From: Escherichia coli
GTDB taxonomy: Bacteria > Pseudomonadota > Gammaproteobacteria > Enterobacterales > Enterobacteriaceae
Length of the DNA: 64,000 nt
Direction: 5' to 3' (one strand)
NCBI RefSeq assembly: GCF_965641715.1
Contig: NZ_OZ282453.1
Position 1 is the stretch's first letter. Each line of letters opens with the position of its first letter. This document shows positions 36,270 to 53,734 of this stretch, in pieces. A model generated the notes under the pieces. That model was not told where the DNA came from. It saw only the letters and a list, made by a program, of their open reading frames with translations, and did not search any database. The translations under genes and the position numbers were made by a program.

Positions 36270-36289
36270 GTGGGTGTTGTGTTTAGGGC

Positions 36290-38430: not shown

Positions 38431-38772
38431 CATATCACTTCAAAAAATCGGGATGTGTTTCCCCAAATCCTCTATATCTTCCCAGCATTATGCACCAGAA
38501 ATAACGGCGCAAATAGTTAACAGATAGAATATCTGGCAATTTATGTTCCACTTTCCAGGCTTGCCTGTAATCGGGGATAATAGAAATATGTTCCATCAAT
38601 TTTTTAAGTTCCATTTTGCCCCCCTTAATTATGCAATGAGTATTTGATCATGTATAAGCAATGAAAAACAGCTTTAGGTAATAAGGAACACCTCAATTAT
38701 TGAACATAAAATGCGAATTATTTAGTACAAAAAAAGCAGCATTACGTGATTTTTCCCTGGGAGTACAGTGTG

Positions 38773-38824
38773 AAGTTTCCGGCATGGCGGGATGCGGATG
38801 GGTTTGAACTGGGGTGATTAGGCA
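38773..38824. repeat. Imperfect duplicate of the yafV 3' end (matches 36225..36276)
   Basis: 28-bp exact core aagtttccggcatggcgggatgcggatg plus diverged flank. Confidence 0.6.
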
Positions 38825-38871
38825 CTACATGTCTACATTTTCCCGGTCACCACCCCCTCAATCTTATGAAC

Positions 38872-40965
38872 TTAACCTCGGCTCACCGTTTTCGATTCCA
38901 TCCAATAAATGACCCGGTTGGATGTGGGCTGATCGCCAACAACTTTGCCATCTGCAGAGATTAGCTTCAGCTCTTTATTAGCCTCATCACCGAAGTAAAT
39001 CATGCGGTAGCGAAAATAACCGCCCCAGGGTTCGCGTCCACCCAGCGAACTTTGCATAAACCAGGCGCGGGAGTCGTGAACCTGGTCATCATAGAGAGCC
39101 AGTAATTCAGCGCAGGGCTGAGTACGCGTTCCCGTTCCCAGTGAATCAATAAAAAATTGTGGATAGAGTCCGTCTCCCATAGCCTTAATTTGCTGATATT
39201 CTTTTGCTTCATCATCGCCATTAATCAGATACACCGGATATTTAGGAATGACATCCACAAGAATCTGAATGGCTTTCTCCATGACGCTGCCGTTAATATC
39301 GCGCGTCCATCCTTTATAATCGCTCTGAAATTCTCGGGCTGCCTCTCGCAACTGATACTGAGCATTGGTTGGGTCAAGGATAGGAATGCCCTGATTACTT
39401 TCATCAAGTGTGCCATTCCCTTTCTGCTTGTTCGCCCGCTCTTTTTCAATATTTTCCATTTGTTCTTTACGCGCTTTAGCCTCTTTATCAAGTCCATCTT
39501 TATCCAGCTGTGGCGCCTTAATATAAAAAGGTTGCACAAGAAGGCTGTTATTCGCATAGCGACCGATACGCCAGGCGGTGATCCAGCCGATCTGATCGCT
39601 AATTGCGCTTTCAAGAACCTGGGCAAGTTGATAGGAGTGATAATCTTCCCTCGTATCAATCATTTCTTCTGTACCCTGCAAGGTGGTGTTCAGCAGCGTT
39701 TGTCGCCAGATGTTGAAGCGTTTTGTTAATGAATTAGCAATCGTAAATTCCTTTACGCTAGAAGGACTCATAATTCGCAGAGGCGACACACCTTTTATTA
39801 ATGGAGTAACAAATTTAGAATAAACAGCAAGTGGTGCTCCTGAATCAAATGCAGCAAGATACATATCATGCAGTGCTATCTGAGAAAGAATTTCGCCTGA
39901 GTCACCACAGGACTTCCCCTGATCGCGAACGGGATAGCCACCACCGACATCAGAGTGCATCCCCGGATAGATAATTTCCTCTGCATTTAAAGGATAATTT
40001 CCGTCTGGACGACGGATTGAATCCAGCGGAAAGCACAGCCGCTGCTCATGCGCGGCAACGAAGTGGCGGCAGCATTTAATCAGGCCGGGAAACTGCCTCT
40101 CATCAGGGAGTTGCTGAGTACTATCGGCCCATCCCATATGACCGGCAGCGCCCGGTAAAACATGCGCCGCCCCCACAGAAGCTACGGTATCCAGCAGCCC
40201 CAAAAACTCAATACTGACAGCTAACCCGGCCAGCATCACCTGTTGCTCCTGCGGGCAAGCTAACTGAGTCAACCAGTTAACAAAAGTTCGTGCTTCCGCT
40301 GCGCCACGGGAAAATCCGTAGATAAACAGCTTTACGTTTAGCAGGCGCGGACTGGCTTGCTCTAACAGTCCCTGTAATTTTTCCAGGTAGGGGTTAATCA
40401 CATTGCGACGATTCACTTCACCAGTCATAGGCCAGGGAGCGCGCATAAGAGGAATGTGCTCTTTTGCCACATTATCATCCAGTCGCTTATGGGAAGGGTC
40501 AATGGAATAGCTCAGGGCATCCACGAGGCGTAATAATGCCCAATTAATTCGATCTTCACCACCAGTAGCGAACTCCAGCCCGCTGTTGCTGTAATCCATT
40601 TCACCTATCTTGGGAAATGGTGTGCCTACACCCGGTATATAGTAGTTAAAATATCCCTGTTCTTCTGCGTTCTGATAGGTCGTATGAAACAGTTTGGCAA
40701 TATTGATTGGGTGTCCAGGAGTGTCATTATATTCATTATTATTTGTACCATCAAAAAACAGACTAATATGCAGACTTTGATTACACGTAAAGCCAATTCT
40801 AAATCCAGCCTGTTTACTACAGTTGGTTTTGTGCTCTTCTGTTTTATTGATTTGTTTTAGGTAGTTCGCGTTTACCTGCGCTTCAGATAATATTAATCGC
40901 CCATTTTCAGGAAACGCTGGGGGGGCATAACACGGAAAAGCCAGACCACTTATTTCGCTGGACAT
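38872..40965 (-). CDS. tle1: T6SS phospholipase effector, Tle1 family
   Basis: 697 aa; lipase motif GFSRGA (GxSxG); sits after adaptor gene in vgrG island. Confidence 0.7.
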   Translation of the reverse strand: MSSEISGLAFPCYAPPAFPENGRLILSEAQVNANYLKQINKTEEHKTNCSKQAGFRIGFTCNQSLHISLFFDGTNNNEYNDTPGHPINIAKLFHTTYQNAEEQGYFNYYIPGVGTPFPKIGEMDYSNSGLEFATGGEDRINWALLRLVDALSYSIDPSHKRLDDNVAKEHIPLMRAPWPMTGEVNRRNVINPYLEKLQGLLEQASPRLLNVKLFIYGFSRGAAEARTFVNWLTQLACPQEQQVMLAGLAVSIEFLGLLDTVASVGAAHVLPGAAGHMGWADSTQQLPDERQFPGLIKCCRHFVAAHEQRLCFPLDSIRRPDGNYPLNAEEIIYPGMHSDVGGGYPVRDQGKSCGDSGEILSQIALHDMYLAAFDSGAPLAVYSKFVTPLIKGVSPLRIMSPSSVKEFTIANSLTKRFNIWRQTLLNTTLQGTEEMIDTREDYHSYQLAQVLESAISDQIGWITAWRIGRYANNSLLVQPFYIKAPQLDKDGLDKEAKARKEQMENIEKERANKQKGNGTLDESNQGIPILDPTNAQYQLREAAREFQSDYKGWTRDINGSVMEKAIQILVDVIPKYPVYLINGDDEAKEYQQIKAMGDGLYPQFFIDSLGTGTRTQPCAELLALYDDQVHDSRAWFMQSSLGGREPWGGYFRYRMIYFGDEANKELKLISADGKVVGDQPTSNRVIYWMESKTVSRG

Positions 40966-41504
40966 GTTGCTGGTTCCTTCATCTCGCGGGGTTCTTTGAT
41001 GGGATAATTCGGTGTGCCATACTTCTGGCAGACGGTTGTCACTTTAATCTGATTACACGTTAGAAAATGAACGGTCAGGCCACAAAGCTCAGCATCGTAT
41101 TCCGGGATATCAACAATTGCGGTATGTTGAATGTAACTTTCTTTTAGTTTTTTCTCCCAGGCCTGATATTTATCCCAATCCTTATAGAGTGGTGGCGGAG
41201 GTACTGTATTTGGGGTAATTTCCCATTCAACCTGGGCTTTTAATCCAGAATGCCACTTATCTGGCAGCATAACGCAACAATATCCTCCACCGTCTCCGAA
41301 TGGACCAATATTTGGTCCGCCGTAACCATTGATGTGTATATAATTTATATCCTTATCCGTATGATTTATCCCATTAATATCCACAGCAGTGTAATCACCG
41401 CTATTTTTTGCCATTGAACAGCCTGATACTGCAAATAAAATCATTAGAGAATAACATTTGAAAATCGTTCTCATACTGATACTTTTCCTTATTTTGCTGG
41501 ACAT
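40950..41504 (-). CDS. lipoprotein, candidate Tle1 immunity protein
   Basis: lipobox LFAVSGC; overlaps tle1 start by 16 nt. Confidence 0.4.
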   Translation of the reverse strand: MSSKIRKSISMRTIFKCYSLMILFAVSGCSMAKNSGDYTAVDINGINHTDKDINYIHINGYGGPNIGPFGDGGGYCCVMLPDKWHSGLKAQVEWEITPNTVPPPPLYKDWDKYQAWEKKLKESYIQHTAIVDIPEYDAELCGLTVHFLTCNQIKVTTVCQKYGTPNYPIKEPREMKEPATCPAK

Positions 41505-41817
41505 GTTGCTGGTTCTTTTACTTTGAGAGATTTTAATTGATGGGTATTGTTTCTACGACAATAAAGTTTTGACAAAGAAGCAAATAAAATGCATATCTTT
41601 CGATTGTCACACATTGGAATATCGACAGAGCATTGATGATATTACGCAAAATATATTGCAGCCAAGTGAACTGACATTACGATCGAACACAAATGCAACA
41701 TGATGGATACTACCATTACATGTCGAGCTTGATTTTCCGTTTATTTCACGATTATCTCTTGATATTAACAGCTACGGACTTTTAAACAGATAAATCTCCC
41801 CGTACATCACCACAATA

Positions 41818-42588
41818 TTATCCTTCGAAGTCCCGCAAAGCTCCGAAATATTTCGCGTCATTGGCTCTGAAAGCAATATCAAGACAGTGGGCAAAATAGC
41901 TTTCCTGACTGAGTTCACTGACTGCTTTCTCCTTCATCAGGACTTCAGCGTCGCAGATACAGCCCATCAATCCCACCTGTACATCATCCACCCGATTCAT
42001 CTCCGGGTTGTCAGTAAGCCTGCGTTCTGGTGAAAAACTTCCTGATTTCCAGTTAATCTCACCATCACGGTCTAACCAGCTCCAGAACAACGCAATATCA
42101 GTAAATGTCGCCTGCTGCTCGTTAGTCAAAACATGTGTGAACAGTAAAGGGAACACCCGATTATCATAGTAACGCAGCAATCCGGTCTGTTCTTCCCACT
42201 GAACCTGTGACAATACCTGAAGATGCCGCCCCAGCAGGTCGAATGTAAGAGGGGATATCAACAAAGTAAGACGCGGCGTATCAGCAAATGACGCCATCAG
42301 TTGTGCCAGAAATTTGCGATGGCTACTGAGCGCAAAGTACAGGCGTAACACTACAGGGGAATACTCCATCGTCTCAGCTTCAGGCGTTCCTTCAAACAGG
42401 GCATACCAGTGAATGGCTGGCCACAGATGAAGTATCTCATTTTGCAAAGGTTGGTCGGTTCCAGCCTGGTCAACAAGCACATCTATGTAATCCAAACCAG
42501 CGGCAGAACAGAATGATTCAGCCTGCTTCAGCCAGATAATATATTTGTCTTGATCGGTAGCGCGTGGCGATACTGTTATCATCGTCAT
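41818..42588 (-). CDS. T6SS effector adaptor/chaperone (DUF4123-like)
   Basis: 256 aa; positioned between vgrG remnant and effector. Confidence 0.45.
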   Translation of the reverse strand: MTMITVSPRATDQDKYIIWLKQAESFCSAAGLDYIDVLVDQAGTDQPLQNEILHLWPAIHWYALFEGTPEAETMEYSPVVLRLYFALSSHRKFLAQLMASFADTPRLTLLISPLTFDLLGRHLQVLSQVQWEEQTGLLRYYDNRVFPLLFTHVLTNEQQATFTDIALFWSWLDRDGEINWKSGSFSPERRLTDNPEMNRVDDVQVGLMGCICDAEVLMKEKAVSELSQESYFAHCLDIAFRANDAKYFGALRDFEG

Positions 42589-42594
42589 TCTCCC

Positions 42595-43010
42595 TTATCC
42601 ACGAGGCGCAAAAGCGGCGGCGGCTTCCTGCGCCCTTTTCAGGCACTCCTTACACACCGATTTTTCTGGCGCTTCCTCACCCTCATCGTTGTTATCATTC
42701 TGATCGGACGATGCATTACTATCATTTTGCTCAGCCGCTAAACTTTTATCATCTGCCAGCGCTTTCAGAACCGCCGGTTGCAGCGTCGGCACCGGCGTTC
42801 CCGGACTACCGCCGCTATTGAGATTGATTTTCGGCCCGACGATGTCCACGCCCCCTGAATGGATGACCACAAACGAACCGCCCACCTTCAGGCTTATCCG
42901 GCTGCTGCTCTCCAGCACCACATCGCCCTCCACCTTTAACCACGCCACCGCAGTCAATGGCATCACCGGTTCTGGCGGTAGGTTTATCGTCGATAAAGGC
43001 GGAAGAGGTG
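42595..43010 (-). pseudogene. Chimeric PAAR 3' fragment fused to vgrG 3' fragment (recombination scar)
   Basis: PAAR motif SSAFIDDKPTARTGDAIDCGGVV in one frame, then vgrG C-terminus VLESSSRISLKVGGSFVVIHSGGVDIVGPKINLN in another; junction ~42940. Confidence 0.65.
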
Positions 43011-43082
43011 TTTCCGGCTCTTAAGAAATATTTACGCACATGCACCAGCATTACAGAAAATAAAACCTGCGATACATTTTAA

Positions 43083-43859
43083 TCAATAAGGTTGCTTTAC
43101 CAAGCTTCCATCGATATTGATGGAAAATTCATTAGACCTAATATGAACAGAATGTTGCTCATCATCTTTATCTAATATTTGATTAACAAAAAAAAACGTA
43201 TTTTTATCAAATTCATAATTATCACATCCCTCTCCACTAAATGATATAGCTCTAAAATCATATTCATTACATGAGTATCTTTTCATCAAAATAGAGAGGA
43301 ATGTTTCATTAATTGATTTTAATACAAACCATTTTCTCCTAACAAGTTTGTAGTTTAATGTTTTTATATGATAATTATTTAAACTGGGGAGAAATGAATG
43401 CATATCATTCAATTTTACATCAAAAGATATTTTTTTACCTGCCGTAATTTCCACCCATCGGCTCAAATTCAAATCAAGCTCAAAGGGACAAAAGCCTCCT
43501 AGATAGTCTAAGCTAATATTTCCTGATGTAATCAAGAATTCGTCATCACACAAAGCATCAAATACATCTCCATTTCCTTTTTGGAAGTTCTTTGGATAAT
43601 ATATTCTGGGGAGAAAATACGATTTAGTACTACTGTTATAAAAAGTTATAGTAGCTAAAATATTTTCAGCATGTGGCTTAACCACCAATTTAACAACAAC
43701 ATCATTTGTTAATTCATTACTTATATTTTCCTCTGGCGCTAAATTATGGCTAAGATAAATAATTGGTTTCCCATTGTCACTTCTTCGTTCAAAACCGAAT
43801 CTGTATTTTTTTACAAAAAGATTCTCATTATCTATTGCAATTGCAATAGATAATGGCAA
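43083..43859 (-). CDS. hypothetical protein, candidate immunity for upstream HExxH effector
   Basis: AT-rich 258-aa ORF directly downstream of putative effector; no signal peptide seen. Confidence 0.35.
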   Translation of the reverse strand: MPLSIAIAIDNENLFVKKYRFGFERRSDNGKPIIYLSHNLAPEENISNELTNDVVVKLVVKPHAENILATITFYNSSTKSYFLPRIYYPKNFQKGNGDVFDALCDDEFLITSGNISLDYLGGFCPFELDLNLSRWVEITAGKKISFDVKLNDMHSFLPSLNNYHIKTLNYKLVRRKWFVLKSINETFLSILMKRYSCNEYDFRAISFSGEGCDNYEFDKNTFFFVNQILDKDDEQHSVHIRSNEFSINIDGSLVKQPY

Positions 43860-43924
43860 AAAACAAAGAAAAAAAAACCATCAGTACAACATAATTTAGA
43901 TTATAGAAAGCCAACCTCTTCATC

Positions 43925-44728
43925 TTATTTCCCCGTCAACTCATCAAAACATTTTTCTATCTCTTTTATTTTATCCTCTACTTTTTTTGCTAACATATTC
44001 TCATCTTGAGCTTCAATATCTTCATCATTTAATTTTATATAAAAATATCTTTCAACATTATATGCATTCTCAAATAACTGATCTTTACGCAATGTAACCA
44101 GATCATTAGCCACTGAAACATGTTTCTCATAGCTAACTTCATCCTTATTACTTGTTGCGAACTTATTAATACCCGTATAATCCTGAGTCCACATACCACC
44201 TTTTTGATTGTCACCCCAATACCAAAATATATGGGACATTTCATGGCAAAGTGTACTTACATGAGAGTCTCTACCTGTAACCGACTGTTTTATACCATGT
44301 CTGTATTCAAAATGCGCTCCGATATTTACAATGTAAGGAGGATCAAGATGTGGACTAATAAAAGCAGCAAATTCATTGCAGTTCGTATAATCTTTATAGC
44401 TTTCGATCGTCAAACCATTTGCAATCGTCATTATTCGTCTGATGCCATCCATTATGAATAGTCTCGCTTGCATTCGTTTCCCAGTATCTTCCCCAACTTT
44501 TCTGATTTTTATAATGTCCTCGCCTTTAAGGCCAAAAACTTTAATAAAATCTCGTTGTTGTTCCCCCTCCCATGACATAATATCATCTGCTCTTTTCAAT
44601 AAAACCATTTTCTGTGCTTTACAAGCCTTACTCATCATTATTTTAAATTTATTTGTAATTTTTTGCGGTACTACACATACTTGCGACTCGGGTTGTGAAG
44701 TCCCACTAGTATTATTATTCCCTGCCAT
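43925..44728 (-). CDS. putative zincin-like (HExxH) metallopeptidase toxin, T6SS effector candidate
   Basis: HEMSH motif (LCHEMSHIFWYWG); start MAGNNNTSG overlaps vgrG stop; AT-rich; ORF track extension to 45103 is spurious. Confidence 0.45.
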   Translation of the reverse strand: MAGNNNTSGTSQPESQVCVVPQKITNKFKIMMSKACKAQKMVLLKRADDIMSWEGEQQRDFIKVFGLKGEDIIKIRKVGEDTGKRMQARLFIMDGIRRIMTIANGLTIESYKDYTNCNEFAAFISPHLDPPYIVNIGAHFEYRHGIKQSVTGRDSHVSTLCHEMSHIFWYWGDNQKGGMWTQDYTGINKFATSNKDEVSYEKHVSVANDLVTLRKDQLFENAYNVERYFYIKLNDEDIEAQDENMLAKKVEDKIKEIEKCFDELTGK

Positions 44729-47114
44729 AATGCCCCTCCGGCTCAATATAAAAAGCATCCGAAAATAACAATTGGACTTTAATTTCCTGTGCTGTATCTG
44801 TATAAAATATTTCTGTATATCCCTCTCTGTCTGTTTCACCACGCGTCTGTGTGCCATCCTCAAAAAAGGCAATATACTGCGTCTCTGAATACGGTATCCC
44901 GTCATCGTCCGTAAAATGGAACTGGAGGGTATATTTTTCAGGATCATCTTCATCGTCACCGCCATCACCTCCTCCGTCACTCCCTGCGGGATTGCCACTA
45001 TCCTCTCCGGAGTCATCACTGCCATCATCACTGCTCTCATCCTCCGGAGCCTCCAGCACCGCCGGCTGCATCGTCCCCACCGGTGTCCCCGCACTGCCCC
45101 CACCGTTCAGGTTTATCTTCGGCCCGGCAATATCCACTCCGCCCGGCTGAATGACGATAAACGAGCCACCCACCTTCAGGCTTATCCGGCTGCTGCTCTC
45201 CAGCACGATATCCCCGTCCACTTTTATCCCCAGCGCGCCACTCACCTTCTCCGCCAGGTCCCCCTTCACCTCCAGGCTGTGCTTCCCCTCCACCAGGCTG
45301 ATGTGGTTACCCGTCGTCTTATGCTCCTGCTTCCCTTTCACCGTCACCCTACGGTCATTTCTGACGTACAGACCGTCATCGTGACTCACGCTCACCGTCC
45401 GGTCATTTGTCACCTTCAGCGTCTGGTCGTTACGTACCGTTATGCTCCGGTCGTTCGCCACCGTGATACTCTGGTCGTGGCCTCCTTCTTTTCTGGTCCC
45501 GACCTCAACCGTCTGCCCCTTCACCACCGTTATCTTCTGGTCGTTACCAATGGTCTCCGTATGGTCATGTTTCACATCCGTTGTCCGGTCGTTGAGCACC
45601 TCCGTATCCATGTTCTTCTGCGCATGGATATACACCTGCTCATTACTGGTGGCGTCCTCAAAGCGCAACTCGTTAAATCCGCTTCCTTTATAGGTCTTCG
45701 ACCGTATCGTCATCTGCGTCTTCGTCCCCGGCAGGCTCCCCGGCGAACGGTTGTCCTCATGGTACGTCCGGCCCATGACCAGCGGCTGGTCCGGGTCTCC
45801 GTTCAGGAAGTCAACAATCACCTCCTGACCCACCCGCGGTATCGCCAGGTTACCAAACCCCGGCCCCGCCCACGCCTGTGATACCCGCACCCAGCATGAA
45901 CTCGCCTCCGTCATCCCGTGATAACGGTCCCAGTGGAACTTCACCCGTACCCGGCCATGTTCGTCGCAGAATATCTCCTCACCCTTCGGCCCGGTGACAA
46001 TGGCGCTCTGCGGCCCGTCCACCTTCGGTTTGCTTTGCAGCCGTGGACGCCACGTCCGGTCCGCCGGTATCACCTCTAACTGATTTCCCAGCGTGGTTCC
46101 TCTCCCCTGGCTGCCGTGCAGCGCCTGCGGCTGGCTTCCTGACAGTATGCTCTGTACCACCTGCCATTCACGGTTCAGCATCTTCTGCGGATGCCCCGTC
46201 AGCGTAAACCGCGTTCCCGGCCACAGCCTCGGCGAATTACTCTGCCCTGTGGCCTTTTCCGCATCACTGCGCAGGCTCTCCATCTGGTACAGCGTGAAAT
46301 CCTTGCCGTGCTGCTCATCCTTGAACCTTCCCGGATAATCAAATATCTCGTACTGCGCCAGCTGTCCGTTCAGGTTCTCACCCTGCTGCTCATACATCCC
46401 CGGCCAGTCCGGCACCTTAAACGTGTAATCCTGGCTCTGCACCGACGACGGGCGGACATGCGCCTCATAACGGAACATACTGAGACACTCCGTCTCCGCT
46501 CCTGCCGATGTGTCCGGGTTAAACGGAAGCTCTCCCGCCTGTGACAGCCCCGCCACATCGTCGCACAGCGTCAGCTTCTGCTCCGGACTGTCCGCCGCAA
46601 ACCGCTCAAAGAAGAAAATTCCTTCTTCCGCCCACAGCCGAGCCAGAAACGCCAGGTCGCTCTCCCCGTACTGGACACAGAACTCCCGCGCCGGATGGTC
46701 TTCATAAAACAGCGGAGTCCACTCCGTGACGCCGTTCTCGTTCAGTAACGTGGCCGATATCGTCCGGATATCCTGCTGCTGAAAAATACGAAAGTTCTGC
46801 CGCAGCCCGCACCGCCATAACGGCGGCTCAATACGCAGGTGATAACGCATCTGCCAGCCGTTGTTCTCCTGCATGCCAAAGCCCGCCACCACGCCGGTGA
46901 CATAACGCTGCGCCACCGCGCCCTGCCAGATGGCCAGCGTCGCCTTCTTCTCCAGCAGCATCTCCGCCGTCTGCATAAAAGAGTCGCTGGCAACATCCAC
47001 ACTCATCACAAACGGATAAGACTGGTTCTGGATTAACCTGAAATTCACCACTGCAAAGGTGTCCGGCTCCTGGCCGTCAATCTCCAGCGTAAAGCGCAGA
47101 CCGTTTAAGGACAT
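44715..47114 (-). CDS. vgrG: T6SS spike protein VgrG with acidic linker and C-terminal extension domain
   Basis: 799 aa; repeated octapeptide region; Asp/Gly-rich linker then ~70-aa C-terminal domain. Confidence 0.9.
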   Translation of the reverse strand: MSLNGLRFTLEIDGQEPDTFAVVNFRLIQNQSYPFVMSVDVASDSFMQTAEMLLEKKATLAIWQGAVAQRYVTGVVAGFGMQENNGWQMRYHLRIEPPLWRCGLRQNFRIFQQQDIRTISATLLNENGVTEWTPLFYEDHPAREFCVQYGESDLAFLARLWAEEGIFFFERFAADSPEQKLTLCDDVAGLSQAGELPFNPDTSAGAETECLSMFRYEAHVRPSSVQSQDYTFKVPDWPGMYEQQGENLNGQLAQYEIFDYPGRFKDEQHGKDFTLYQMESLRSDAEKATGQSNSPRLWPGTRFTLTGHPQKMLNREWQVVQSILSGSQPQALHGSQGRGTTLGNQLEVIPADRTWRPRLQSKPKVDGPQSAIVTGPKGEEIFCDEHGRVRVKFHWDRYHGMTEASSCWVRVSQAWAGPGFGNLAIPRVGQEVIVDFLNGDPDQPLVMGRTYHEDNRSPGSLPGTKTQMTIRSKTYKGSGFNELRFEDATSNEQVYIHAQKNMDTEVLNDRTTDVKHDHTETIGNDQKITVVKGQTVEVGTRKEGGHDQSITVANDRSITVRNDQTLKVTNDRTVSVSHDDGLYVRNDRRVTVKGKQEHKTTGNHISLVEGKHSLEVKGDLAEKVSGALGIKVDGDIVLESSSRISLKVGGSFIVIQPGGVDIAGPKINLNGGGSAGTPVGTMQPAVLEAPEDESSDDGSDDSGEDSGNPAGSDGGGDGGDDEDDPEKYTLQFHFTDDDGIPYSETQYIAFFEDGTQTRGETDREGYTEIFYTDTAQEIKVQLLFSDAFYIEPEGHYGRE
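45650..47114. repeat. ~1.5 kb direct repeat, vgrG 5' region copy 1
   Basis: near-identical to 51535..52995 (1 mismatch in the ~130 bp compared by eye); boundaries approximate. Confidence 0.7.
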
Positions 47115-47132
47115 AAATACCTCTCAGACATA

Positions 47133-47417
47133 TCAGCCTATATTTACCGTACCGCCACCAATGACCACACCACCACAGTCGATGGCATCACCGGTTCTGG
47201 CGGCGGGCAGGCCGTCAATAAAGACGGTTGAAGAACCTCTGGCGATTTTACGGGGATGAGGTGGATGCTTCGGTTTAGCATGCGGCGTCAGCGGATCTCC
47301 CTGGCGAGCAGCAGGTAATCCATCAATAAATACCGTGGATGAAGCCGCAATGATGACTGTCTCACGGTAGCCATCATGCTGAGTACCTTTGTCGTTTAAT
47401 CTGGCAGCTAAAGGCAT
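47133..47417 (-). CDS. PAAR-domain protein
   Basis: two PAAR motifs (STVFIDGLPAARQGD / STVFIDGLPAARTGDAIDCGG). Confidence 0.8.
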   Translation of the reverse strand: MPLAARLNDKGTQHDGYRETVIIAASSTVFIDGLPAARQGDPLTPHAKPKHPPHPRKIARGSSTVFIDGLPAARTGDAIDCGGVVIGGGTVNIG

Positions 47418-47527: not shown

Positions 47528-48538
47528 TCAAGTAACAGGGATAAACTGACCATCAATCAGCGAAAATACCGGAGCGTAATACCCCATACGCTCTTCACCA
47601 CTTTCATCTGTAAAACGGTAAGTCAGTGGGGAATACGTTGGCATTGATTTATTATATAATTGCACCATACGCCCATTATTCATAACCCGGACGGCATAAT
47701 CGTTCCACCTGATAGGCAGTATTTTGGCTTTTCCACCCTCAAGGTTATCTTTCGGAAAGTGGGAGAGTAATATGTCATCCTCAGAGTCACCGGTTGTGGC
47801 TGACCATGCCTTCAGCGCCTCTGTGTTATATAACTTAAGACGTGCTCTGTCCCCGCTGTTAATAATTGTTGCCATTTCGGTATAGGTGGCTTTTAACTTC
47901 CGTAGCTGCTCGTCGCTTCCGGTATAGGGGGTTGCCCGCGTCCAGGCCCATTCAGGAAGCCCCGTCACCGTGACTTTTTGTGTAAACTGATACACCTTCA
48001 TCCCTTTCGGAAAATAGGTTTCATCAAAATAATCTGGATCTATAAATCCTGGCTCCGCCTGCTCTGCCAGGATCTCTTTCCTGATAACGGGATGCACGCT
48101 GTCTGACCGGGCTTCAGGTATGCCCTGCTGGTTGATGGTCACTTTTATCGAAGAAAGCAGGGTTTCTTCCTGTTTAATAAAACGAACCAAATCCAGGCTG
48201 CACCCTGCTTTTTGGAAAAAACGCCCCCGTTCTTCCGTACTGGCAGGCTTGTCAGAAAACCATCCTAACGCCCCGATTTCCAGACTGATTTCATTTTCTC
48301 CATTCGCCATCAGCATCATGGCATTGGTGCTGGATATGGCCCCGGTGGAATCACCATTCTCTCGCCATGCGTTCATTCGGTTACTGAAGCCGAGGACACC
48401 GTTGGTTTTGATGGCACAATATGATTCCTCAATATTAAACTTACTGCGGATTTTTTGTGGATTTTCACCCGAGTACAATCCTGCTCCCATAATACCTCCT
48501 GACAGTAAAATAACCGATATTAAATGTTTTACCTTCAT
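47528..48538 (-). CDS. secreted protein of unknown function, candidate periplasmic immunity protein
   Basis: N-terminal signal peptide; follows putative effector. Confidence 0.4.
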   Translation of the reverse strand: MKVKHLISVILLSGGIMGAGLYSGENPQKIRSKFNIEESYCAIKTNGVLGFSNRMNAWRENGDSTGAISSTNAMMLMANGENEISLEIGALGWFSDKPASTEERGRFFQKAGCSLDLVRFIKQEETLLSSIKVTINQQGIPEARSDSVHPVIRKEILAEQAEPGFIDPDYFDETYFPKGMKVYQFTQKVTVTGLPEWAWTRATPYTGSDEQLRKLKATYTEMATIINSGDRARLKLYNTEALKAWSATTGDSEDDILLSHFPKDNLEGGKAKILPIRWNDYAVRVMNNGRMVQLYNKSMPTYSPLTYRFTDESGEERMGYYAPVFSLIDGQFIPVT

Positions 48539-48604
48539 AATTATTTTCTCTTAAAAGGAAAAGACTCTCATTATATTGAGTGATTTTAATTGCTGTAATA
48601 TCAC

Positions 48605-50176
48605 TTAATAATCCATGCCTATTGTCCACGTTGTCACTGGCTTCGGCGGTATTACTTTTTTCTCTACCGTGCGTTCTTTACCGTATAAATTAACCCGCAA
48701 TGGTGAATCTTTTATCTCCATAGGATCACATAACTGCCACTCAACGGTATCTTTCTTCTCGGGTTTCTCACTCTTTTCTTTCCCCTTTCCCTTCCCTTTA
48801 CTTTCACCATAAGATACATCCGCCTTAAATTCGAACTTTCCTTTAATGCCGTCATGAAATAATGCCAGGTCCAGTCCGTCATCATGTGAATCGAATCCAA
48901 AGCCAGCTTTCGCCTCTATAGAAGCGGTCGCTTCTGCGGTCAGTTGTACAACAAAAACATTCGCCTCAAACGTCGCACTCACCACACCTTTTAAACCGAG
49001 CTTGATGTTACTTTCCTTTACATTAAACTCCCATTTTTTATCCTTTTCAGCGTATACTGCGCCAAGATCAAGATTAATCTCCGCTGAAATCTCGATATAG
49101 CATTCAACACTGGCTCCGTTTTTACGGAGATATTCACGACATCTGTTGACCAATGACTCGACTTTACAGTATGCACATATAAATGAAATAATATCGAATC
49201 TGAACGACGCTTCAAAAAATGGGGCACCAAACAAACCATAAAAATGACAGGGGCCATCCTGGATATCGGTATATTGATAGGCATACGATATACCCAGTTT
49301 AACGGGTTCTATTTTTGCACTGAACAATGCATATTTGCGCGTACCATTATTATTGTCAGGATCTGGCGCAAAATATTTATTGACATTCTTGACCAGAGAG
49401 TCAATTCTTCCTATCTGTTCCAGTTGCTTTGTTTGTCGAAGTTTTTTTATCTCTTTTTCATATTCACTTGTGTGTTCAACATTAGCTATTTTTACGCCAA
49501 AATCGACAGTCAGGGAAGTCTTGTTTATCCACTCAAACTCAGCAGTGGTATTTGTCCAGCCGCTACGGAGTTTATTTTTATCCCTGGGCTTGGTGTTCTC
49601 CATTGCGTCCCTGGCTTTTATTCTTTCGTCACGCCGCTCTTTTACTGTTCGCGTCTGTTTTGATGACGAAATCTCATAGCTGAACCCTGTAGTAAACCTA
49701 ATTTCCATTGTAGGATAAACATCAATTTCAACATAATTGCCACATTCGTAACAACTGTCAATTCTGACTGAATAATGGGCAGGTTCATAATGATTCTTAA
49801 GTGGAGAGGATATTGCCCCCAAATAATCCCATGGTACGCGAAATGTACCCATAGCAATTATTTCACCTTCAGACAAGTTATCATCCAAAGTGACCTTATT
49901 AGGTATTCCGAAAGGTTGCAGTATCTTATGATTATTTTCTGATTCTTCCTCTAACCATGCCTCATGTGTTCCACTTTTATCGCACTGGTAGGTAATGGTA
50001 ATTATACCATCACATCCGGAACCATCATCCAGTAGCTTAAAACGCGCCACTCCTTCTTTTGACCAGAAATGTTTCTCGCCGGCCTCTGGAAAATCACTAA
50101 TAACATCAAAAATACATGGATCAGGTATGCCGCATTCCACACAGGGCTTTCCGGCTGTCGAAGATGGAGATGTCAT
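48605..50176 (-). CDS. large protein of unknown function, candidate T6SS effector
   Basis: 523 aa, follows DUF4123-like adaptor; Cys-rich N-terminus (CVECG..DPC), Lys/Gly-rich C-terminal tract; AT-rich. Confidence 0.4.
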   Translation of the reverse strand: MTSPSSTAGKPCVECGIPDPCIFDVISDFPEAGEKHFWSKEGVARFKLLDDGSGCDGIITITYQCDKSGTHEAWLEEESENNHKILQPFGIPNKVTLDDNLSEGEIIAMGTFRVPWDYLGAISSPLKNHYEPAHYSVRIDSCYECGNYVEIDVYPTMEIRFTTGFSYEISSSKQTRTVKERRDERIKARDAMENTKPRDKNKLRSGWTNTTAEFEWINKTSLTVDFGVKIANVEHTSEYEKEIKKLRQTKQLEQIGRIDSLVKNVNKYFAPDPDNNNGTRKYALFSAKIEPVKLGISYAYQYTDIQDGPCHFYGLFGAPFFEASFRFDIISFICAYCKVESLVNRCREYLRKNGASVECYIEISAEINLDLGAVYAEKDKKWEFNVKESNIKLGLKGVVSATFEANVFVVQLTAEATASIEAKAGFGFDSHDDGLDLALFHDGIKGKFEFKADVSYGESKGKGKGKEKSEKPEKKDTVEWQLCDPMEIKDSPLRVNLYGKERTVEKKVIPPKPVTTWTIGMDY

Positions 50177-50197
50177 ATAATCTATCCGTTTGTCTTT

Positions 50198-51040
50198 TTA
50201 TTGCGGGATAAATCCCAGTTCCTGTTGTGCAAGTTCATGTACCCGAATATGTCCCGGGTATGACTGATTGCTGAGTTGTTCATACCAGTCATCCGGAATA
50301 TATCTGAGATCGATTATATTTTTTTTCAGTAATATAAGCGTCATTGTTCTGACGGAACGATCATCTGCTATATTTAATGACTGGCAAAAAGAGAAATAAT
50401 CTTCTGCCAGAATTCGGGATGATTCAGCTTTTGATAAATCATCCCATCCGTCTTTATCTACATTTTCTTCGATAAATGCAGATAATATATCAAGATAATT
50501 ATCCCGTGCCTTTCGTTCCAGTTGGCTATATTGTCTGTAACTCAGCGTCAGTTGTGATGGCCGTTCTGCCCTTATATTCATAGTTTCTGCGGGACGGACG
50601 GAAGAAAAATTATCCTCACGACATTCTTCACCATAGCGGGTACTTAGCTGTCTGACGGGGCTGATAAAAGAAAGAAGCTGGCGGGGGGTCAGAACTTCCG
50701 CTAATACCCATATATTCCGGGGATCATAAAATCGCATGAGAACAGGTTTCTCCTGTTCGGGGATCATAACCCACAGATAACGTCTGAAGTGTTGCTGTAG
50801 CTCACGTATGGATGACTCAGAAGTAAGATATATTCCCCACGGCGACGCCTTATCACTCAGCCATGCTTCAACTTCCGGAACAACCTCCACGAGATAAGGG
50901 GCCAGCGCGACCAGATCCGGTTGTATGGGTTCTGCATACAGACAACAGTGCGGGGGATTCACCTCGTTCAGAAAATCCAGCAATCCTTCCTCCACAGCGC
51001 CATCCACAATGGCGTACTGCACGGGTGCCGTTTCCATCAC
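50198..51040 (-). CDS. T6SS effector adaptor/chaperone (DUF4123-like)
   Basis: N-terminal YAIVDGA; overlaps vgrG2 stop. Confidence 0.5.
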   Translation of the reverse strand: MMETAPVQYAIVDGAVEEGLLDFLNEVNPPHCCLYAEPIQPDLVALAPYLVEVVPEVEAWLSDKASPWGIYLTSESSIRELQQHFRRYLWVMIPEQEKPVLMRFYDPRNIWVLAEVLTPRQLLSFISPVRQLSTRYGEECREDNFSSVRPAETMNIRAERPSQLTLSYRQYSQLERKARDNYLDILSAFIEENVDKDGWDDLSKAESSRILAEDYFSFCQSLNIADDRSVRTMTLILLKKNIIDLRYIPDDWYEQLSNQSYPGHIRVHELAQQELGFIPQ

Positions 51041-52995
51041 TTATCCTCCTTCGGACAATGCGACACGAACATCGAACCACTTCCGGCTGCGGCTTTCAGG
51101 ATCACCGGGCGCATCGGCAGGATCACATCCCCCGGACTGCCCCCGCCGTTAAGATTGATTTTCGCGCCCTTAATATCCACGCCGCCGGAATGGATCACCA
51201 CAAATGAACCGCCCACCCGCAGACTGATTTTGCTGTCGCTCTGTAAAACAATATCGCCCTGTACGCTGATACCCAGCGCGCCGCTTATTTTCTGTGCCAG
51301 ATCGCCTTTCACCTCCAGTCCCTGATTGCCCTCTGTCAGGCTGACGTGGTCTTTGGTGGTTTTATGGTCCTGTTTACCTTCAACCGTCACTTTCCGGTCA
51401 TTTGCCACCACCAGGGATTCATCATGCCCGATGCTGACCGTCCGGTCATAGTTGACCCGCTTATCCTTGCTGTTCAGCACAACGACCTGCATATTTTTCT
51501 GTGCGTGCAGATAAATTTCTTCCTTGTCCGTGGCGTCCTCAAACCGCAGTTCGTTAAATCCGCTTCCTTTATAGGTCTTTGACCGTATCGTCATCTGCGT
51601 CTTCGTCCCCGGCAGACTCCCCGGCGAACGGTTGTCCTCATGGTATGTCCGGCCCATGATTATCGGCTGGTCCGGGTCTCCGTTCAGGAAGTCAACAATC
51701 ACCTCCTGACCCACCCGCGGTATCGCCAGGTTACCGAACCCCGGCCCCGCCCACGCCTGCGATACCCGCACCCAGCATGAACTCGCCTCCGTCATCCCGT
51801 GATAACGGTCCCAGTGGAACTTCACCCGTACCCGGCCATGTTCGTCGCAGAATATCTCCTCACCCTTCGGCCCGGTCACAATGGCACTCTGCGGCCCGTC
51901 CACCTTCGGTTTGCTTTGCAGCCGTGGACGCCACGTCCGGTCTGCCGGTATCACCTCTAACTGATTTCCCAGCGTGGTTCCCCTCCCCTGGCTGCCGTGC
52001 AGCGCCTGCGGCTGGCTTCCTGACAGTATGCTCTGTACCACCTGCCATTCACGGTTCAGCATCTTCTGCGGATGCCCCGTCAGCGTAAACCGCGTTCCCG
52101 GCCACAGCCTCGGCGAATTACTCTGCCCTGTGGCCTTTTCCGCATCACTGCGCAGGCTCTCCATCTGGTACAGCGTGAAATCCTTGCCGTGCTGCTCATC
52201 CTTGAACCTTCCCGGATAATCAAATATCTCATACTGCGCCAGCTGTCCGTTCAGGTTCTCACCCTGCTGCTCATACATCCCCGGCCAGTCCGGCACCTTA
52301 AACGTGTAATCCTGGCTCTGCACCGACGACGGGCGGACATACGCCTCATAACGGAACATACTGACACACTCTGTCTCCGCTCCTGCCGATGTGTCCGGGT
52401 TAAACGGAAGCTCTCCCGCCTGTGACAGCCCCGCCACATCGTCGCACAGCGTCAGCTTCTGCTCCGGACTGTCCGCCGCAAACCGCTCAAAGAAGAAAAT
52501 TCCCTCCTCCGCCCACAGCCGCGCCAGAAACGCCAGGTCCGACTCCCCGTACTGCACACAGAACTCCCGCGCCGGATGGTCCTCATAAAACAGCGGCGTC
52601 CACTCCGTGACGCCGTTCTCGTTCAGTAACGTGGCCGATATCGTCCGGATATCCTGCTGCTGGAAGATACGGAAGTTCTGCCGCAGCCCGCACCGCCATA
52701 ACGGCGGCTCAATACGCAGGTGATAACGCATCTGCCAGCCATTGTTCTCCTGCATACCAAAACCCGCCACCACGCCGGTGACATAACGCTGCGCCACCGC
52801 GCCCTGCCAGATGGTCAGCGTCGCCTTCTTCTCCAGCAGCATCTCCGCCGTCTGCATAAAAGAGTCGCTGGCAACATCCACACTCATCACAAACGGATAT
52901 GACTGGTTCTGGATTAACCTGAAATTCACCACTGCAAAGGTGTCCGGCTCCTGGCCGTCAATCTCCAGCGTAAAGCGCAGACCGTTTAAGGACAT
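51037..52995 (-). CDS. vgrG: T6SS spike protein VgrG (short form, no C-terminal extension)
   Basis: 652 aa; N-terminal region near-identical to the 799-aa vgrG. Confidence 0.9.
   Translation of the reverse strand: MSLNGLRFTLEIDGQEPDTFAVVNFRLIQNQSYPFVMSVDVASDSFMQTAEMLLEKKATLTIWQGAVAQRYVTGVVAGFGMQENNGWQMRYHLRIEPPLWRCGLRQNFRIFQQQDIRTISATLLNENGVTEWTPLFYEDHPAREFCVQYGESDLAFLARLWAEEGIFFFERFAADSPEQKLTLCDDVAGLSQAGELPFNPDTSAGAETECVSMFRYEAYVRPSSVQSQDYTFKVPDWPGMYEQQGENLNGQLAQYEIFDYPGRFKDEQHGKDFTLYQMESLRSDAEKATGQSNSPRLWPGTRFTLTGHPQKMLNREWQVVQSILSGSQPQALHGSQGRGTTLGNQLEVIPADRTWRPRLQSKPKVDGPQSAIVTGPKGEEIFCDEHGRVRVKFHWDRYHGMTEASSCWVRVSQAWAGPGFGNLAIPRVGQEVIVDFLNGDPDQPIIMGRTYHEDNRSPGSLPGTKTQMTIRSKTYKGSGFNELRFEDATDKEEIYLHAQKNMQVVVLNSKDKRVNYDRTVSIGHDESLVVANDRKVTVEGKQDHKTTKDHVSLTEGNQGLEVKGDLAQKISGALGISVQGDIVLQSDSKISLRVGGSFVVIHSGGVDIKGAKINLNGGGSPGDVILPMRPVILKAAAGSGSMFVSHCPKEDK
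51535..52995. repeat. ~1.5 kb direct repeat, vgrG 5' region copy 2
   Basis: near-identical to 45650..47114. Confidence 0.7.
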
Positions 52996-53169
52996 AATGA
53001 CCTCCCTGATTTATTCACGGACCAAATGATTCTCACCATGCAGCAAAGGGTGCCAGTGCAGCGTTACACTCATCTTTACATTTTCAGGTACGCTACCGCC
53101 CGGGTTTCCGGCATCCGCCATCTCCCTCATGAAAGCGTAACTCCTTACTGACACTCATTTTTTACACGT

Positions 53170-53204
53170 ACAAAAACAACATCCTGCACGAAGGCAGGAT
53201 GTTG
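53170..53204 (-). terminator. Rho-independent terminator downstream of hcp
   Basis: stem caacatcctgc/gcaggatgttg followed by UUUUUG on minus-strand transcript. Confidence 0.6.
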
Positions 53205-53215
53205 TTGACTCAGAT

Positions 53216-53734
53216 TTATGCTTCCAGCGGTGCACGCCAGTCATCGGCACCAGAAGTACCGGATTTGATGTGCTCCCACTCAACCTTACGGTATGCCAGT
53301 GATACTGCGAGCAATTGCGTAAACTCACGCTGTGCAGGGTCCTGGCAGTGCGGCATGTGCAGGTTCATGTCCACAATCGTCGCGTCAGTAAGACGTGTGG
53401 TGAAGTAGTGCTCCTGCTTGCCTTCAACTGAAGTACGCCACCAGTGCAGCTCCACTTTCGGCAGCATTTCACCGGAGGCCAGCGCGTTGTACAGCAGCGG
53501 AACGGCTTTGTTCAGCGCCACGGTGAAAATGAACGGTTTGTGCGCGCGCTGCCCGGAAGGTTGACCAGACTGTGGATCGGTTGGAACAGTAACGTTATGC
53601 AGAAACTCCTGCACCAGCATTTCATCTTCGTGTCCCTGCACGTAGATATTGCCGACAGAATCTGCGGTGAAAGCACCGGCAGTGATGTTCCCCTGGGTCT
53701 GACCTGTAATTGAAATGTAACATGGGGTTGGCAT
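53216..53734 (-). CDS. hcp: T6SS tube protein Hcp (TssD)
   Basis: 172 aa MPTPCYISITGQTQGNITAG; good RBS. Confidence 0.9.
   Translation of the reverse strand: MPTPCYISITGQTQGNITAGAFTADSVGNIYVQGHEDEMLVQEFLHNVTVPTDPQSGQPSGQRAHKPFIFTVALNKAVPLLYNALASGEMLPKVELHWWRTSVEGKQEHYFTTRLTDATIVDMNLHMPHCQDPAQREFTQLLAVSLAYRKVEWEHIKSGTSGADDWRAPLEA

What the first reader, a model, noticed from the sequence alone, without database searches (positions are those of the whole stretch)
38872..43010. Tle1-type phospholipase cassette preceded by a PAAR'-vgrG' recombination scar
A short PAAR 3' fragment is fused out of frame to ~110 codons of a vgrG 3' end (junction ~42940), followed by an adaptor-like gene, a lipoprotein and a GxSxG lipase of Tle1 type. 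This looks like a once-complete PAAR-vgrG-effector unit whose spike genes were deleted by recombination with a neighbouring vgrG, leaving an orphan cassette. The lipoprotein lies upstream of, and overlapping, the lipase rather than downstream.
Basis: seen in the sequence. Interest (0 to 1): 0.5.

Follow-up and report, generated by a model that had tools for sequence, protein, structure and literature searches.

The report
Orphaned Tle1 cassette with spike-gene scar
In an E. coli type VI secretion locus, a Tle1 lipase toxin with its chaperone and antidote has lost its own needle-tip genes, which survive only as a roughly 430-base scar, and this is an ordinary by-product of how such toxin modules are stacked and reshuffled.

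Summary
On the minus strand, about 80 nt of a PAAR 3' end (43020-42941) is joined out of frame to the last 115 codons of a vgrG (42940-42595). Intact tla1 (DUF4123 adaptor), tli1a (DUF3304 lipoprotein immunity) and tle1 follow.

The window is the yafV-side E. coli T6SS cluster. It carries three stacked modules:
- Hcp, VgrG_A, adaptor, effector, immunity.
- PAAR, VgrG_B, M35-like effector, immunity.
- The scar plus the Tle1 cassette.

An intact version exists. E. coli A32 has PAAR-VgrG-Tla1-Tli1a x3-Tle1 as a downstream module at the same locus. Relative to A32, the scar lacks about 1.9 kb.

The junction joins unrelated genes with only a few bases of microhomology. It is therefore an illegitimate deletion, not vgrG-vgrG recombination.

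The scar is 99-100% identical in all 16 relatives that carry it (12 of 5426 complete genomes), which points to a single origin.

The VgrG tail that recruits Tla1 and Tle1 in the Pseudomonas model is single copy in every genome that has it. Scar strains therefore lack the cognate spike, and tle1 carries frame-disrupting indels in 13 of 16 relatives.

The lipoprotein-upstream gene order is canonical, not unusual. The finding is ordinary module turnover and of low interest.

The parts
38872..40965 (-). tle1: PA3290-type T6SS phospholipase effector, 697 aa, intact reading frame, GFSRG at residue 217
   Evidence: Pfam PF22137 (E 1e-56) and PF09994. PDB 4O5P at E 3e-117 over residues 11-677, with the Ser, Asp and His motif contexts conserved. 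Motif position.
40919..40925 (-). C7 homopolymer in tle1 codons 14-16. C6 variants shift the frame in relatives.
   Evidence: C7 in the window, L007 and all intact-locus alleles. C6 in L001/L003/L005, and independently in L009/L010.
40950..41504 (-). tli1a: DUF3304 outer-membrane lipoprotein immunity gene, single copy here, overlapping tle1 by 16 nt
   Evidence: NCBIfam NF053804, 211 bits against a cut-off of 110. Lipobox LFAVSGC with Ser at +2. Other loci have 2-3 tandem copies.
41818..42588 (-). tla1: DUF4123 adaptor/chaperone for Tle1. Its GGGAGA ribosome-binding site lies directly after the vgrG' stop codon.
   Evidence: NCBIfam NF053803 equivalog, 220 bits against a cut-off of 200. Sequence context.
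42595..42940 (-). vgrG' remnant: the last 115 codons of a T2-type VgrG (end of the gp5 beta-helix plus the effector-recruiting C-terminal tail). It has no start codon context.
   Evidence: 97% identical to the intact A32 VgrG and to the L027 allele. Tail 42763-42595 matches at 169/169. Annotated by PGAP as a partial VgrG pseudogene in relatives.
42941..43020 (-). PAAR' remnant: about 27-30 of 94 codons (C-terminal third), in a different frame from vgrG', not annotated in RefSeq relatives
   Evidence: D5. 79-82% identical to the PAAR genes in the window, L030 and L031. The annotation under the match is 'none'.
43021..43082 (-). AT-rich spacer between the stop of the M35-partner gene and the PAAR' remnant. 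This is the right-hand edge of the low-GC M35 cassette.
   Evidence: no PAAR similarity upstream of about 43020. Composition.
43083..44728 (-). Module 2 cargo: an M35-like metallopeptidase effector (43925-44728, HEMSH) and a 258-aa presumed immunity protein (43083-43859), about 30% GC
   Evidence: PGAP names it 'M35 family metalloendopeptidase'. Pfam PF14521 is only E 0.002. Homologues of the partner occur only in E. coli and Salmonella.
44715..47417 (-). Intact PAAR (47133-47417) and VgrG_B (44715-47114, 799 aa, acidic linker plus C-terminal domain), the spike pair of module 2
   Evidence: NCBIfam NF033420 (157 bits) and TIGR03361 (600 bits).
45169..45206 (-). 38-nt block in VgrG_B identical to 42881-42918 in vgrG'. 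It is the longest exact repeat of the remnant in the window.
   Evidence: The same block is present in the natural T2 VgrG allele, so it is a shared allele segment and not a scar-specific event.
47528..53734 (-). Module 1 and hcp: Hcp (53216-53734), VgrG_A (51037-52995), DUF4123 adaptor (50198-51040), 523-aa protein (48605-50176), 336-aa protein (47528-48538)
   Evidence: Colinear at 89% with the ExPEC auxiliary island L030.

Best explanation
The region is the third and oldest module of a stacked spike-and-cargo array downstream of hcp in the yafV-side E. coli T6SS cluster. It is a PA3290-type Tle1 cassette: the Tla1 adaptor, the Tli1a outer-membrane lipoprotein immunity protein and the Tle1 phospholipase.

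Its own PAAR-VgrG spike pair has been reduced to a non-coding scar by illegitimate deletion. About 1.9 kb has been lost between the PAAR 3' end and VgrG codon ~630, and the PAAR 5' two-thirds has been lost at the edge of the neighbouring low-GC M35 cassette.

Shown here:
- Homology of both remnants.
- The junction position and frames.
- The existence of the intact unit in strain A32.
- A single origin for the scar.
- Single-copy status of the VgrG tail.

Inferred:
- In the P. aeruginosa system the last ~20 residues of VgrG4a recruit Tla1 and Tle1. By analogy, Tle1 in this strain has no cognate spike and is probably not loaded or fired.
- The cassette probably persists because it is transcribed by read-through and because Tli1a still protects against Tle1-armed kin.
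- tle1 itself is under relaxed selection.
For: Anatomy.

Intact comparators:
- Hcp-VgrG_T-Tla1-Tli1a x3-Tle1.
- PAAR-VgrG_T2-Tla1-Tli1a x3-Tle1 as a downstream module at the same locus in A32.
- The remnant is 369/382 identical to A32.

Single origin: the scar is 99-100% identical in all 16 scar-bearing loci fetched and is always flanked by M35-Imm and tla1. It occurs in 12 of 5426 complete genomes.

Stacked PAAR-VgrG modules are normal in E. coli and Salmonella.

Orphan status:
- The tail 42595-42800 is present once per genome in all 67 genomes that have it, by megablast and by blastn.
- Tla1 is unrelated to the module-1 adaptor.
- The tails of VgrG_A and VgrG_B differ from the T tail.

Tail requirement: PMC13133936 section 7.

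Decay in scar-bearing relatives:
- C7 to C6 slip, arising twice.
- A 23-nt deletion.
- An extra +1 insertion.
- A tla1 frameshift and loss of tli1a.
- By contrast, all 4 loci with a type-I VgrG_T that were tested keep an intact tle1, and the A32 tle1 is annotated as intact.

Family assignments.
Against: - tle1, tla1 and tli1a are all intact in this window, so loss of function is not shown here.
- The C6 variants can restart from an internal GTG (PGAP annotates 686 aa), so not every 'frameshift' is a null allele.
- The inactivating mutations are few independent events (3-4) in related strains, and only five intact-locus controls were examined.
- The tail requirement is taken from P. aeruginosa and was not tested for E. 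coli.
- The PAAR' piece is only 79-82% identical to any E. coli PAAR, while vgrG' is 97-100% identical to intact alleles. This fits less well with simple in-situ decay of one unit.
- No intermediate (M35-Imm followed by an intact PAAR-VgrG_T) was found.
- No expression data are available.
Confidence: 0.7

Rival explanations
1. Import scar rather than in-situ decay. The lineage never had a PAAR-VgrG-Tle1 unit. A foreign segment (VgrG_B tail, M35, Imm and a truncated PAAR) entered an Hcp-VgrG_T2-Tla1-Tli1a-Tle1 locus by homology-facilitated illegitimate recombination. The left crossover lay in the conserved vgrG core, and the right end joined illegitimately at VgrG codon ~630. On this reading PAAR' comes from the donor and vgrG' from the recipient.
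For: - PAAR' is at most 83% identical to any PAAR in 5426 E. coli genomes, while vgrG' is 97-100% identical to resident alleles.
- The M35-Imm cassette is about 30% GC.
- Outside the scar-bearing strains, Imm homologues are known only at 49-54% identity, in Salmonella and two unnamed Logan contigs.
- The scar is never seen without M35-Imm.
- T2-type VgrG also occurs directly after Hcp without a PAAR (L027).
- The process is the one proposed for V. cholerae arrays (PMC5361080).
Against: - A32 shows that PAAR-VgrG_T2-Tle1 exists as a downstream module at this locus.
- The core of PAAR' (42978-42936) matches the A32 PAAR at 40/43. The mismatches cluster near the two junctions.
- No donor carrying the junction or a close Imm was found in the species representatives or in the JGI metagenomes.
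Confidence: 0.25
2. Silent but re-armable cassette. The vgrG' remnant keeps exactly the cargo-recruiting tail and shares a 193-nt homeologous stretch with VgrG_B, including 38 identical nt. RecA-mediated exchange between them would delete the M35 module and rebuild a VgrG with the Tle1 tail. The C7 tract in tle1 would add ON/OFF switching.
For: - Direct repeats 42749-42941 and 45037-45229 at 78%, with a 38-nt exact block.
- The hybrid protein would be almost the natural T2 allele.
- VgrG_T alleles T1, T2 and T3 are mosaics with different breakpoints in this same zone.
- Arrays evidently collapse by vgrG-vgrG exchange, giving locus types with and without module 1.
- The C7/C6 polymorphism arose twice.
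- Orphan Rhs reactivation is a precedent cited in PMC5361080.
Against: - 78% identity is poor substrate for RecA.
- No recombinant carrying scar-lineage markers was identified.
- The cassette accumulates disruptive mutations in relatives, which argues against maintenance as a reserve.
- All of this is evolutionary-scale inference, not a programmed switch.
Confidence: 0.1
3. One reading: the spike genes were removed by homologous recombination between this unit's vgrG and a neighbouring vgrG.
For: Neighbouring vgrG genes share long near-identical cores, and such exchanges plausibly explain other locus types.
Against: - The junction is between PAAR and vgrG sequence, with only about 2-5 nt of microhomology, and it is out of frame.
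- A vgrG-vgrG crossover would leave one hybrid vgrG and remove the PAAR entirely.
Confidence: 0.03

Closest known systems
P. aeruginosa vgrG4a island, PA3294-PA3290: vgrG4a, tla1, tli1b, tli1a, tle1 (Lefebvre et al., J Biol Chem 2026, PMC13133936; Tle1 structure PDB 4O5P)
   Same: - Same gene order, with the immunity lipoproteins between the adaptor and the lipase.
- Tla1 and Tli1a pass the NCBIfam models built on that system.
- Tle1 aligns with 4O5P over nearly its full length (E 3e-117).
   Different: - Here the VgrG is reduced to its last 115 codons and is preceded by a PAAR fragment.
- There is one tli1a copy.
- The cassette sits as the third module inside a main T6SS cluster.
- The VgrG tail sequences were not compared directly.
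Intact E. coli versions of the same locus: A32 (PAAR-VgrG_T2-Tla1-Tli1a x3-Tle1 behind another VgrG module) and type-I loci such as NGF1 and AF5 (Hcp-VgrG_T-Tla1-Tli1a x3-Tle1)
   Same: - Same chromosomal site, between tssB/hcp and yafV.
- 97-99% DNA identity across the vgrG 3' end, tla1 and tle1.
- Same ISAs1 remnant downstream.
   Different: - The window lacks about 1.9 kb of PAAR-vgrG and the PAAR 5' part.
- It has one tli1a instead of three.
- It carries two extra modules upstream.
Sequential displacement of T6SS effector-immunity modules in Vibrio cholerae (Kirchberger et al. 2017, PMC5361080), and the Rhs C-terminal displacement and orphan arrays cited there
   Same: - A newer module sits next to the intact carrier gene.
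- The older module is pushed downstream with a 3' remnant of the carrier.
- The old immunity gene is retained.
- There is a mixture of homologous and illegitimate recombination.
   Different: - The displaced unit here keeps a complete adaptor and a complete effector, not only immunity genes.
- The remnant is of the spike genes (PAAR plus VgrG) rather than of the effector.
EAEC Sci-1 Tle1-VgrG1 (PDB 6SJL/6SKI)
   Same: A Tle1-family phospholipase delivered by an E. coli T6SS through the VgrG C-terminus, with a lipoprotein immunity protein.
   Different: - Only distant similarity (E 6e-7 over about 140 residues).
- As described in PMC13133936 and from my own knowledge, the EAEC effector binds VgrG directly without a DUF4123 adaptor. 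The window's cassette has an adaptor.

Membership tests
Tle1 phospholipase effectors (PA3290 type) | Tle1-like catalytic domain plus Tle1-like C-terminal domain | tested here: met
   PF09994 (two stretches, E 1e-13 and 5e-7) and PF22137 (E 1e-56).
Tle1 phospholipase effectors (PA3290 type) | GxSxG nucleophile motif and conserved Asp and His contexts of the catalytic triad | tested here: met
   GFSRG at residue 217. YGFSRGAAEAR, DTVA.VG and YPG.HSDVGGGY align with 4O5P. Triad residue numbers were not checked against the structure paper.
Tle1 phospholipase effectors (PA3290 type) | Phospholipase activity and T6SS-dependent delivery | not testable with these tools
Delivery is doubtful because the cognate VgrG tail exists only in the remnant.
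Tla1 (DUF4123 Tle1 adaptor) | Score above the curated cut-off of the NCBIfam equivalog NF053803 | tested here: met
   220.2 bits against a cut-off of 200, covering residues 19-248.
Tli1a (DUF3304 immunity lipoprotein) | Score above the NF053804 cut-off, plus a lipoprotein signal peptide | tested here: met
   211 bits against a cut-off of 110. Lipobox LFAVSG|C with Ser at +2, read from the sequence. Localisation was not tested.
VgrG/TssI spike protein | gp27-like and gp5-like domains in one ORF (TIGR03361/TIGR01646) | tested here: not met
   The 123-aa ORF 42598-42966 hits no NCBIfam model. Only the last 115 codons are homologous. It is a pseudogene remnant. VgrG_B at 44715-47114 does meet the criterion.
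PAAR spike-tip protein | Complete 94-residue PAAR domain (NF033420) | tested here: not met
   Only about 27-30 C-terminal codons are present, with no start codon, and the frame is broken at 42941. The intact PAAR at 47133-47417 scores 157 bits.
Displaced/orphan T6SS cargo module | A 3' remnant of the carrier gene upstream of an older cassette, with a newer module attached to an intact carrier upstream | tested here: met
   The order is VgrG_B, M35, Imm, then PAAR'::vgrG', then tla1-tli1a-tle1.
Displaced/orphan T6SS cargo module | No cognate carrier elsewhere in the genome | tested here: met
   Shown for the 12 complete scar-bearing genomes: the tail occurs once per genome. The rest of the source genome of this window cannot be seen.
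Displaced/orphan T6SS cargo module | Old effector lost while immunity is retained (V. cholerae model) | tested here: inconclusive
   In this window tle1 is intact. In 13 of 16 relatives it carries indels relative to the native start, while tli1a is retained in all but one.

The most novel reading that the evidence does not exclude
The spike remnant is not just debris. It keeps precisely the cargo-recruiting tail, and it shares a recombination-competent block with the active VgrG_B. The array could therefore work as a store of silent spike-tail-plus-cargo cassettes that are re-armed by vgrG-vgrG exchange, the VgrG counterpart of orphan Rhs/CdiA modules. The C7 tract would give an additional slip-strand switch on tle1.
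Probability: 0.1. Interest if true: 0.5.

Novelty: new member of a known kind. Interest (0 to 1): 0.25.

Why it matters
The finding has three modest uses.

1. It documents, to the base, how stacked PAAR-VgrG-cargo modules in the E. coli T6SS cluster are built up and eroded: an illegitimate deletion inside a spike pair, array collapse between vgrG cores, and mosaic VgrG tails.

2. It supplies natural near-isogenic comparators for asking whether a Tla1-dependent Tle1 needs its own VgrG tail. A32 is the intact comparator. A30 and this window carry the scar with tle1 intact. Other strains carry the scar with tle1 broken.

3. It flags an unannotated PAAR fragment. It also corrects the idea that immunity-before-effector is odd for this Tle1 subtype.

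None of this changes current understanding of T6SS biology.

Tried and rejected
1. Chimeric remnant. I first read the vgrG' remnant as a chimera of VgrG_B and the type-I VgrG formed when the scar arose. I rejected this. A natural intact allele (T2: SCU-124, A32 and about 15 genomes) already has that composition, and the remnant is simply its 3' end.

2. No PAAR-VgrG-Tle1 unit. I first concluded that no such unit exists, because the type-I and type-III loci lack an upstream PAAR. A32 overturned this.

3. Donor or intermediate. These searches found no intermediate:
- The search for related loci with the 258-aa partner protein found nothing in the 100,044 species representatives.
- The 26-mer across the junction is absent from genome contigs and from the JGI metagenome contigs.
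- The Salmonella homologues (49-54% identity) are followed by IS elements or other genes, not by this scar.

4. Cross-loading. The module-1 DUF4123 adaptor shows no real similarity to Tla1.

5. Regulatory signals. Promoter-like and terminator-like hits are at background level (18 found against 15.5 expected, and 9 against 7.4), so no statement on transcription can be made. There are no Rfam hits in 36000-54500. There are no PADLOC hits for the unassigned proteins.

Full report
**1. Setting**

The window is an Escherichia coli-type chromosome. The genes yafV, ivy and fadE lie to the left, and tssB, tssC, tssE, tssF and tssG to the right.

On the minus strand, downstream of hcp (53216-53734), the window carries three stacked modules:
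- Module 1: VgrG_A (51037-52995), a DUF4123 adaptor, a 523-aa protein and a 336-aa protein.
- Module 2: PAAR (47133-47417), VgrG_B (44715-47114), an M35-like protein (43925-44728, HEMSH motif) and a 258-aa partner (43083-43859).
- Module 3: the region of the finding.

No complete E. coli genome of the 5426 searched carries the whole three-module array. The stretch 36000-47123 is 99% identical to strains such as ECNB21-M121 and A30. The stretch 47383-54500 is 96% identical to another locus type.

**2.

BLASTN of 42400-43200 against the window gives two matches:
- 42749-42941 matches 45037-45229 inside VgrG_B (78%, E 3e-41).
- 42927-43002 matches 47152-47227 inside the intact PAAR gene (79%, E 6e-13).

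The repeat finder returns the same pairs.

Base-by-base alignment puts the end of the PAAR similarity and the start of the vgrG similarity at 42941/42940. The PAAR similarity begins near 43020. The PAAR piece and the vgrG piece lie in different frames.

The vgrG piece is the last 115 codons. It comprises the end of the gp5 beta-helix plus a 57-residue tail ending ...KECLKRAQEAAAAFAPRG.

The three downstream genes are intact:
- Tla1 and Tli1a score above the curated cut-offs of the NCBIfam models named after the Pseudomonas proteins.
- Tle1 has both Tle1 Pfam domains.
- Tle1 aligns with the P. aeruginosa Tle1 structure 4O5P at E 3e-117. GFSRG and the Asp and His motif contexts are conserved.
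- Similarity to the EAEC Tle1 (6SJL) is only marginal.

**3. Intact versions**

I found three kinds of related locus.

- Type I (for example AF5 and NGF1): Hcp, VgrG_T, Tla1, Tli1a x3, Tle1, ISAs1 remnant.
- Type III (12 of 5426 complete genomes, for example ECNB21-M121, A30 and 23CRST031): Hcp, VgrG_B, M35, partner, the same scar, Tla1, Tli1a, Tle1. PGAP already marks the vgrG piece as an N-terminally missing pseudogene. The PAAR piece is unannotated.
- Strain A32: Hcp, VgrG_x, two unnamed genes, ISAs1 remnant, PAAR, VgrG_T2 (743 aa, intact), Tla1, Tli1a x3, Tle1, at the same site next to yafV. A22 shares the same tail and PAAR junction.

The remnant in the window is 369/382 identical to the A32 gene, and its tail is 169/169 identical to the T2 allele.

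So a complete PAAR-VgrG-adaptor-immunity-Tle1 unit sitting behind another module is a real arrangement. Relative to it, the scar lacks about 1.9 kb (coordinates).

**4. How the scar formed**

At the junction the sequences read as follows:
- PAAR: ...GTGGTTA TTGGTGGCGG
- VgrG: ...GGGGATA AAGGTGGACGG
- Scar: ...GTGGTTA AAGGTGGAGGG

The shared sequence is limited to TA and an imperfect flanking match. This is an illegitimate deletion. It is not an exchange between two vgrG genes, which would have produced a hybrid vgrG and removed the PAAR.

A second junction is needed, because the PAAR piece also lacks its first ~58 codons. It abuts a 60-nt AT-rich spacer at the end of the ~30% GC M35 cassette.

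The scar is 99-100% identical in all 16 scar-bearing loci I fetched. These comprise 8 complete genomes plus draft and metagenome contigs. The scar is always flanked by the same neighbours, so it arose once.

Two histories remain open:
- In-situ erosion of an A32-like array after a new cassette replaced module 2.
- Import of M35-partner-PAAR' from an unsampled donor, with the right end joined illegitimately inside a resident VgrG_T2.

The second history is favoured by the contrast in divergence. PAAR' is at most 83% identical to any E. coli PAAR, whereas vgrG' is 97-100% identical to intact alleles.

The first history is favoured by A32, and by the fact that the central 43 nt of PAAR' match the A32 PAAR at 40/43, with the mismatches clustered near both junctions.

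I found no intermediate or donor.

**5. An idea I had to withdraw**

The block 42881-42918 is identical to VgrG_B (45169-45206) but differs at 12 of 38 positions from the first type-I allele I compared. I read this as a chimera created with the scar.

A wider search showed that a natural intact allele (T2) has exactly this composition. The ExPEC auxiliary VgrG shares it too. The VgrG 3' region is a population-level mosaic, and the remnant is simply the end of a T2 gene.

**6. Context of stacking**

Window 44811-53004 is colinear at 89% with an auxiliary island between yncG and yddH found in roughly 600 genomes. That island reads PAAR, VgrG, DUF4123, two proteins, PAAR, VgrG, M35.

Type-II loci retain only the first 35 nt of the second PAAR before an ISAs1 element. 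Type-III loci lack module 1 and the PAAR.

Together these patterns indicate that arrays grow by module addition. They shrink by exchange between the near-identical vgrG cores and by IS-associated deletion. This is inference from the locus comparison.

**7. What the cassette probably does now**

In P. aeruginosa, the last ~20 residues of VgrG4a bind both Tla1 and Tle1. Point mutations in that tail abolish the interactions (PMC13133936).

In E. coli, the corresponding tail DNA occurs once per genome in all 67 genomes that have it, both with megablast and with sensitive blastn. In the 12 scar-bearing complete genomes, that one copy is the remnant.

The tails of VgrG_A and VgrG_B are different, and the module-1 adaptor is unrelated to Tla1.

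I therefore infer that Tle1 here lacks a spike to ride on. The cassette would be kept because Tli1a still protects against Tle1-armed relatives, and because it lies in the same transcriptional direction.

Mutations in scar-bearing relatives are consistent with relaxed selection:
- tle1 has a C7-to-C6 slip, which arose in two different allele backgrounds.
- tle1 has a 23-nt deletion in eight contigs.
- One contig has an additional 1-nt insertion.
- tla1 is frameshifted in one genome.
- tli1a is lost in one genome.

By contrast, all four loci with a type-I VgrG_T that were tested keep tle1 intact, and the A32 tle1 is annotated as intact.

This evidence has limits. The events are few and the strains are related. 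C6 alleles may restart from an internal GTG. In this window all three genes are intact.

**8. Gene order**

It is the standard order for this subtype. It occurs in PA3294-PA3290 in P. aeruginosa and in every intact E. coli locus examined. In those loci the tandem tli1a copies and tle1 each overlap by 16 nt.

**9. Verdict**

The parts belong to known families. The process (module displacement, orphan cassettes, mosaic VgrG tails) is already described for V. cholerae T6SS and for Rhs systems. I found no paper in the held library that describes this particular PAAR'::vgrG' scar.

It is a new example of a known kind and of low general interest. A minor untested possibility is that such remnants serve as substrates for re-arming.

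Noticed in passing
window 40919-40925 (minus strand, tle1 codons 14-16): A C7 homopolymer. C6 variants arose at least twice in relatives and shift the frame from the native ATG. An internal GTG at gene nt 34 could then restart a 686-aa product, as PGAP annotates. This may be slip-strand ON/OFF variation.
   Followed up: partly
window 44811-53004; L030 8669-16828: Modules 1 and 2 are colinear at 89% with an auxiliary T6SS island between yncG and yddH, present in roughly 600 ExPEC-type genomes (Nissle 1917, UTI89 and others). That island reads PAAR, VgrG, DUF4123, 516 aa, 321 aa, PAAR, VgrG, M35.
   Followed up: partly
window 47528-50176: The 523-aa and 336-aa proteins behind VgrG_A and its DUF4123 adaptor have no NCBIfam or PADLOC hit. 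They are presumably an uncharacterised effector-immunity pair.
   Followed up: partly
window 43083-44728: A low-GC (~30%) cassette holds an M35-like protein (HEMSH; Pfam M35 only E 0.002) and a 258-aa partner. Homologues of the partner were found only in E. coli and in Salmonella enterica (49-54% identity).
   Followed up: partly
window 43826-43855: A perfect 13-bp-stem palindrome (CATTATCTATTGC AATT GCAATAGATAATG) lies inside the 5' end of the 258-aa ORF, just downstream of the M35 gene. Its significance is unknown.
   Followed up: no
window 47383-47417; L006 about 9001: Locus type II (for example WP7-S17-ESBL-01) keeps only the first 35 nt of this PAAR gene before an ISAs1 element. This suggests it derives from a longer array like the window's.
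   Followed up: partly
window 40950-41817: tli1a is single copy here but present as 2-3 tandem copies elsewhere, with one often frameshifted. The 313-nt gap between tla1 and the first tli1a is conserved in length across loci.
   Followed up: partly
window 36167-38614: Between the Tle1 cassette and yafV lie degenerate ISAs1 transposase fragments, a DUF2859 'integrating conjugative element protein' and a 167-aa hypothetical. These are conserved in all locus types.
   Followed up: no
L015 (Salmonella Moero contig) 1-10650: Salmonella also stacks an M35-like effector and partner, three small genes, a disrupted PAAR, a degraded vgrG and a further PAAR. Tandem PAAR-VgrG modules with decay are therefore not peculiar to E. 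coli.
   Followed up: partly
L017 and L019 (E. coli draft contigs): In some scar-bearing strains most of the T6SS core is deleted. A truncated tssM/IcmF_C is joined to a truncated vgrG, so the whole array is stranded without a machine at this locus.
   Followed up: no
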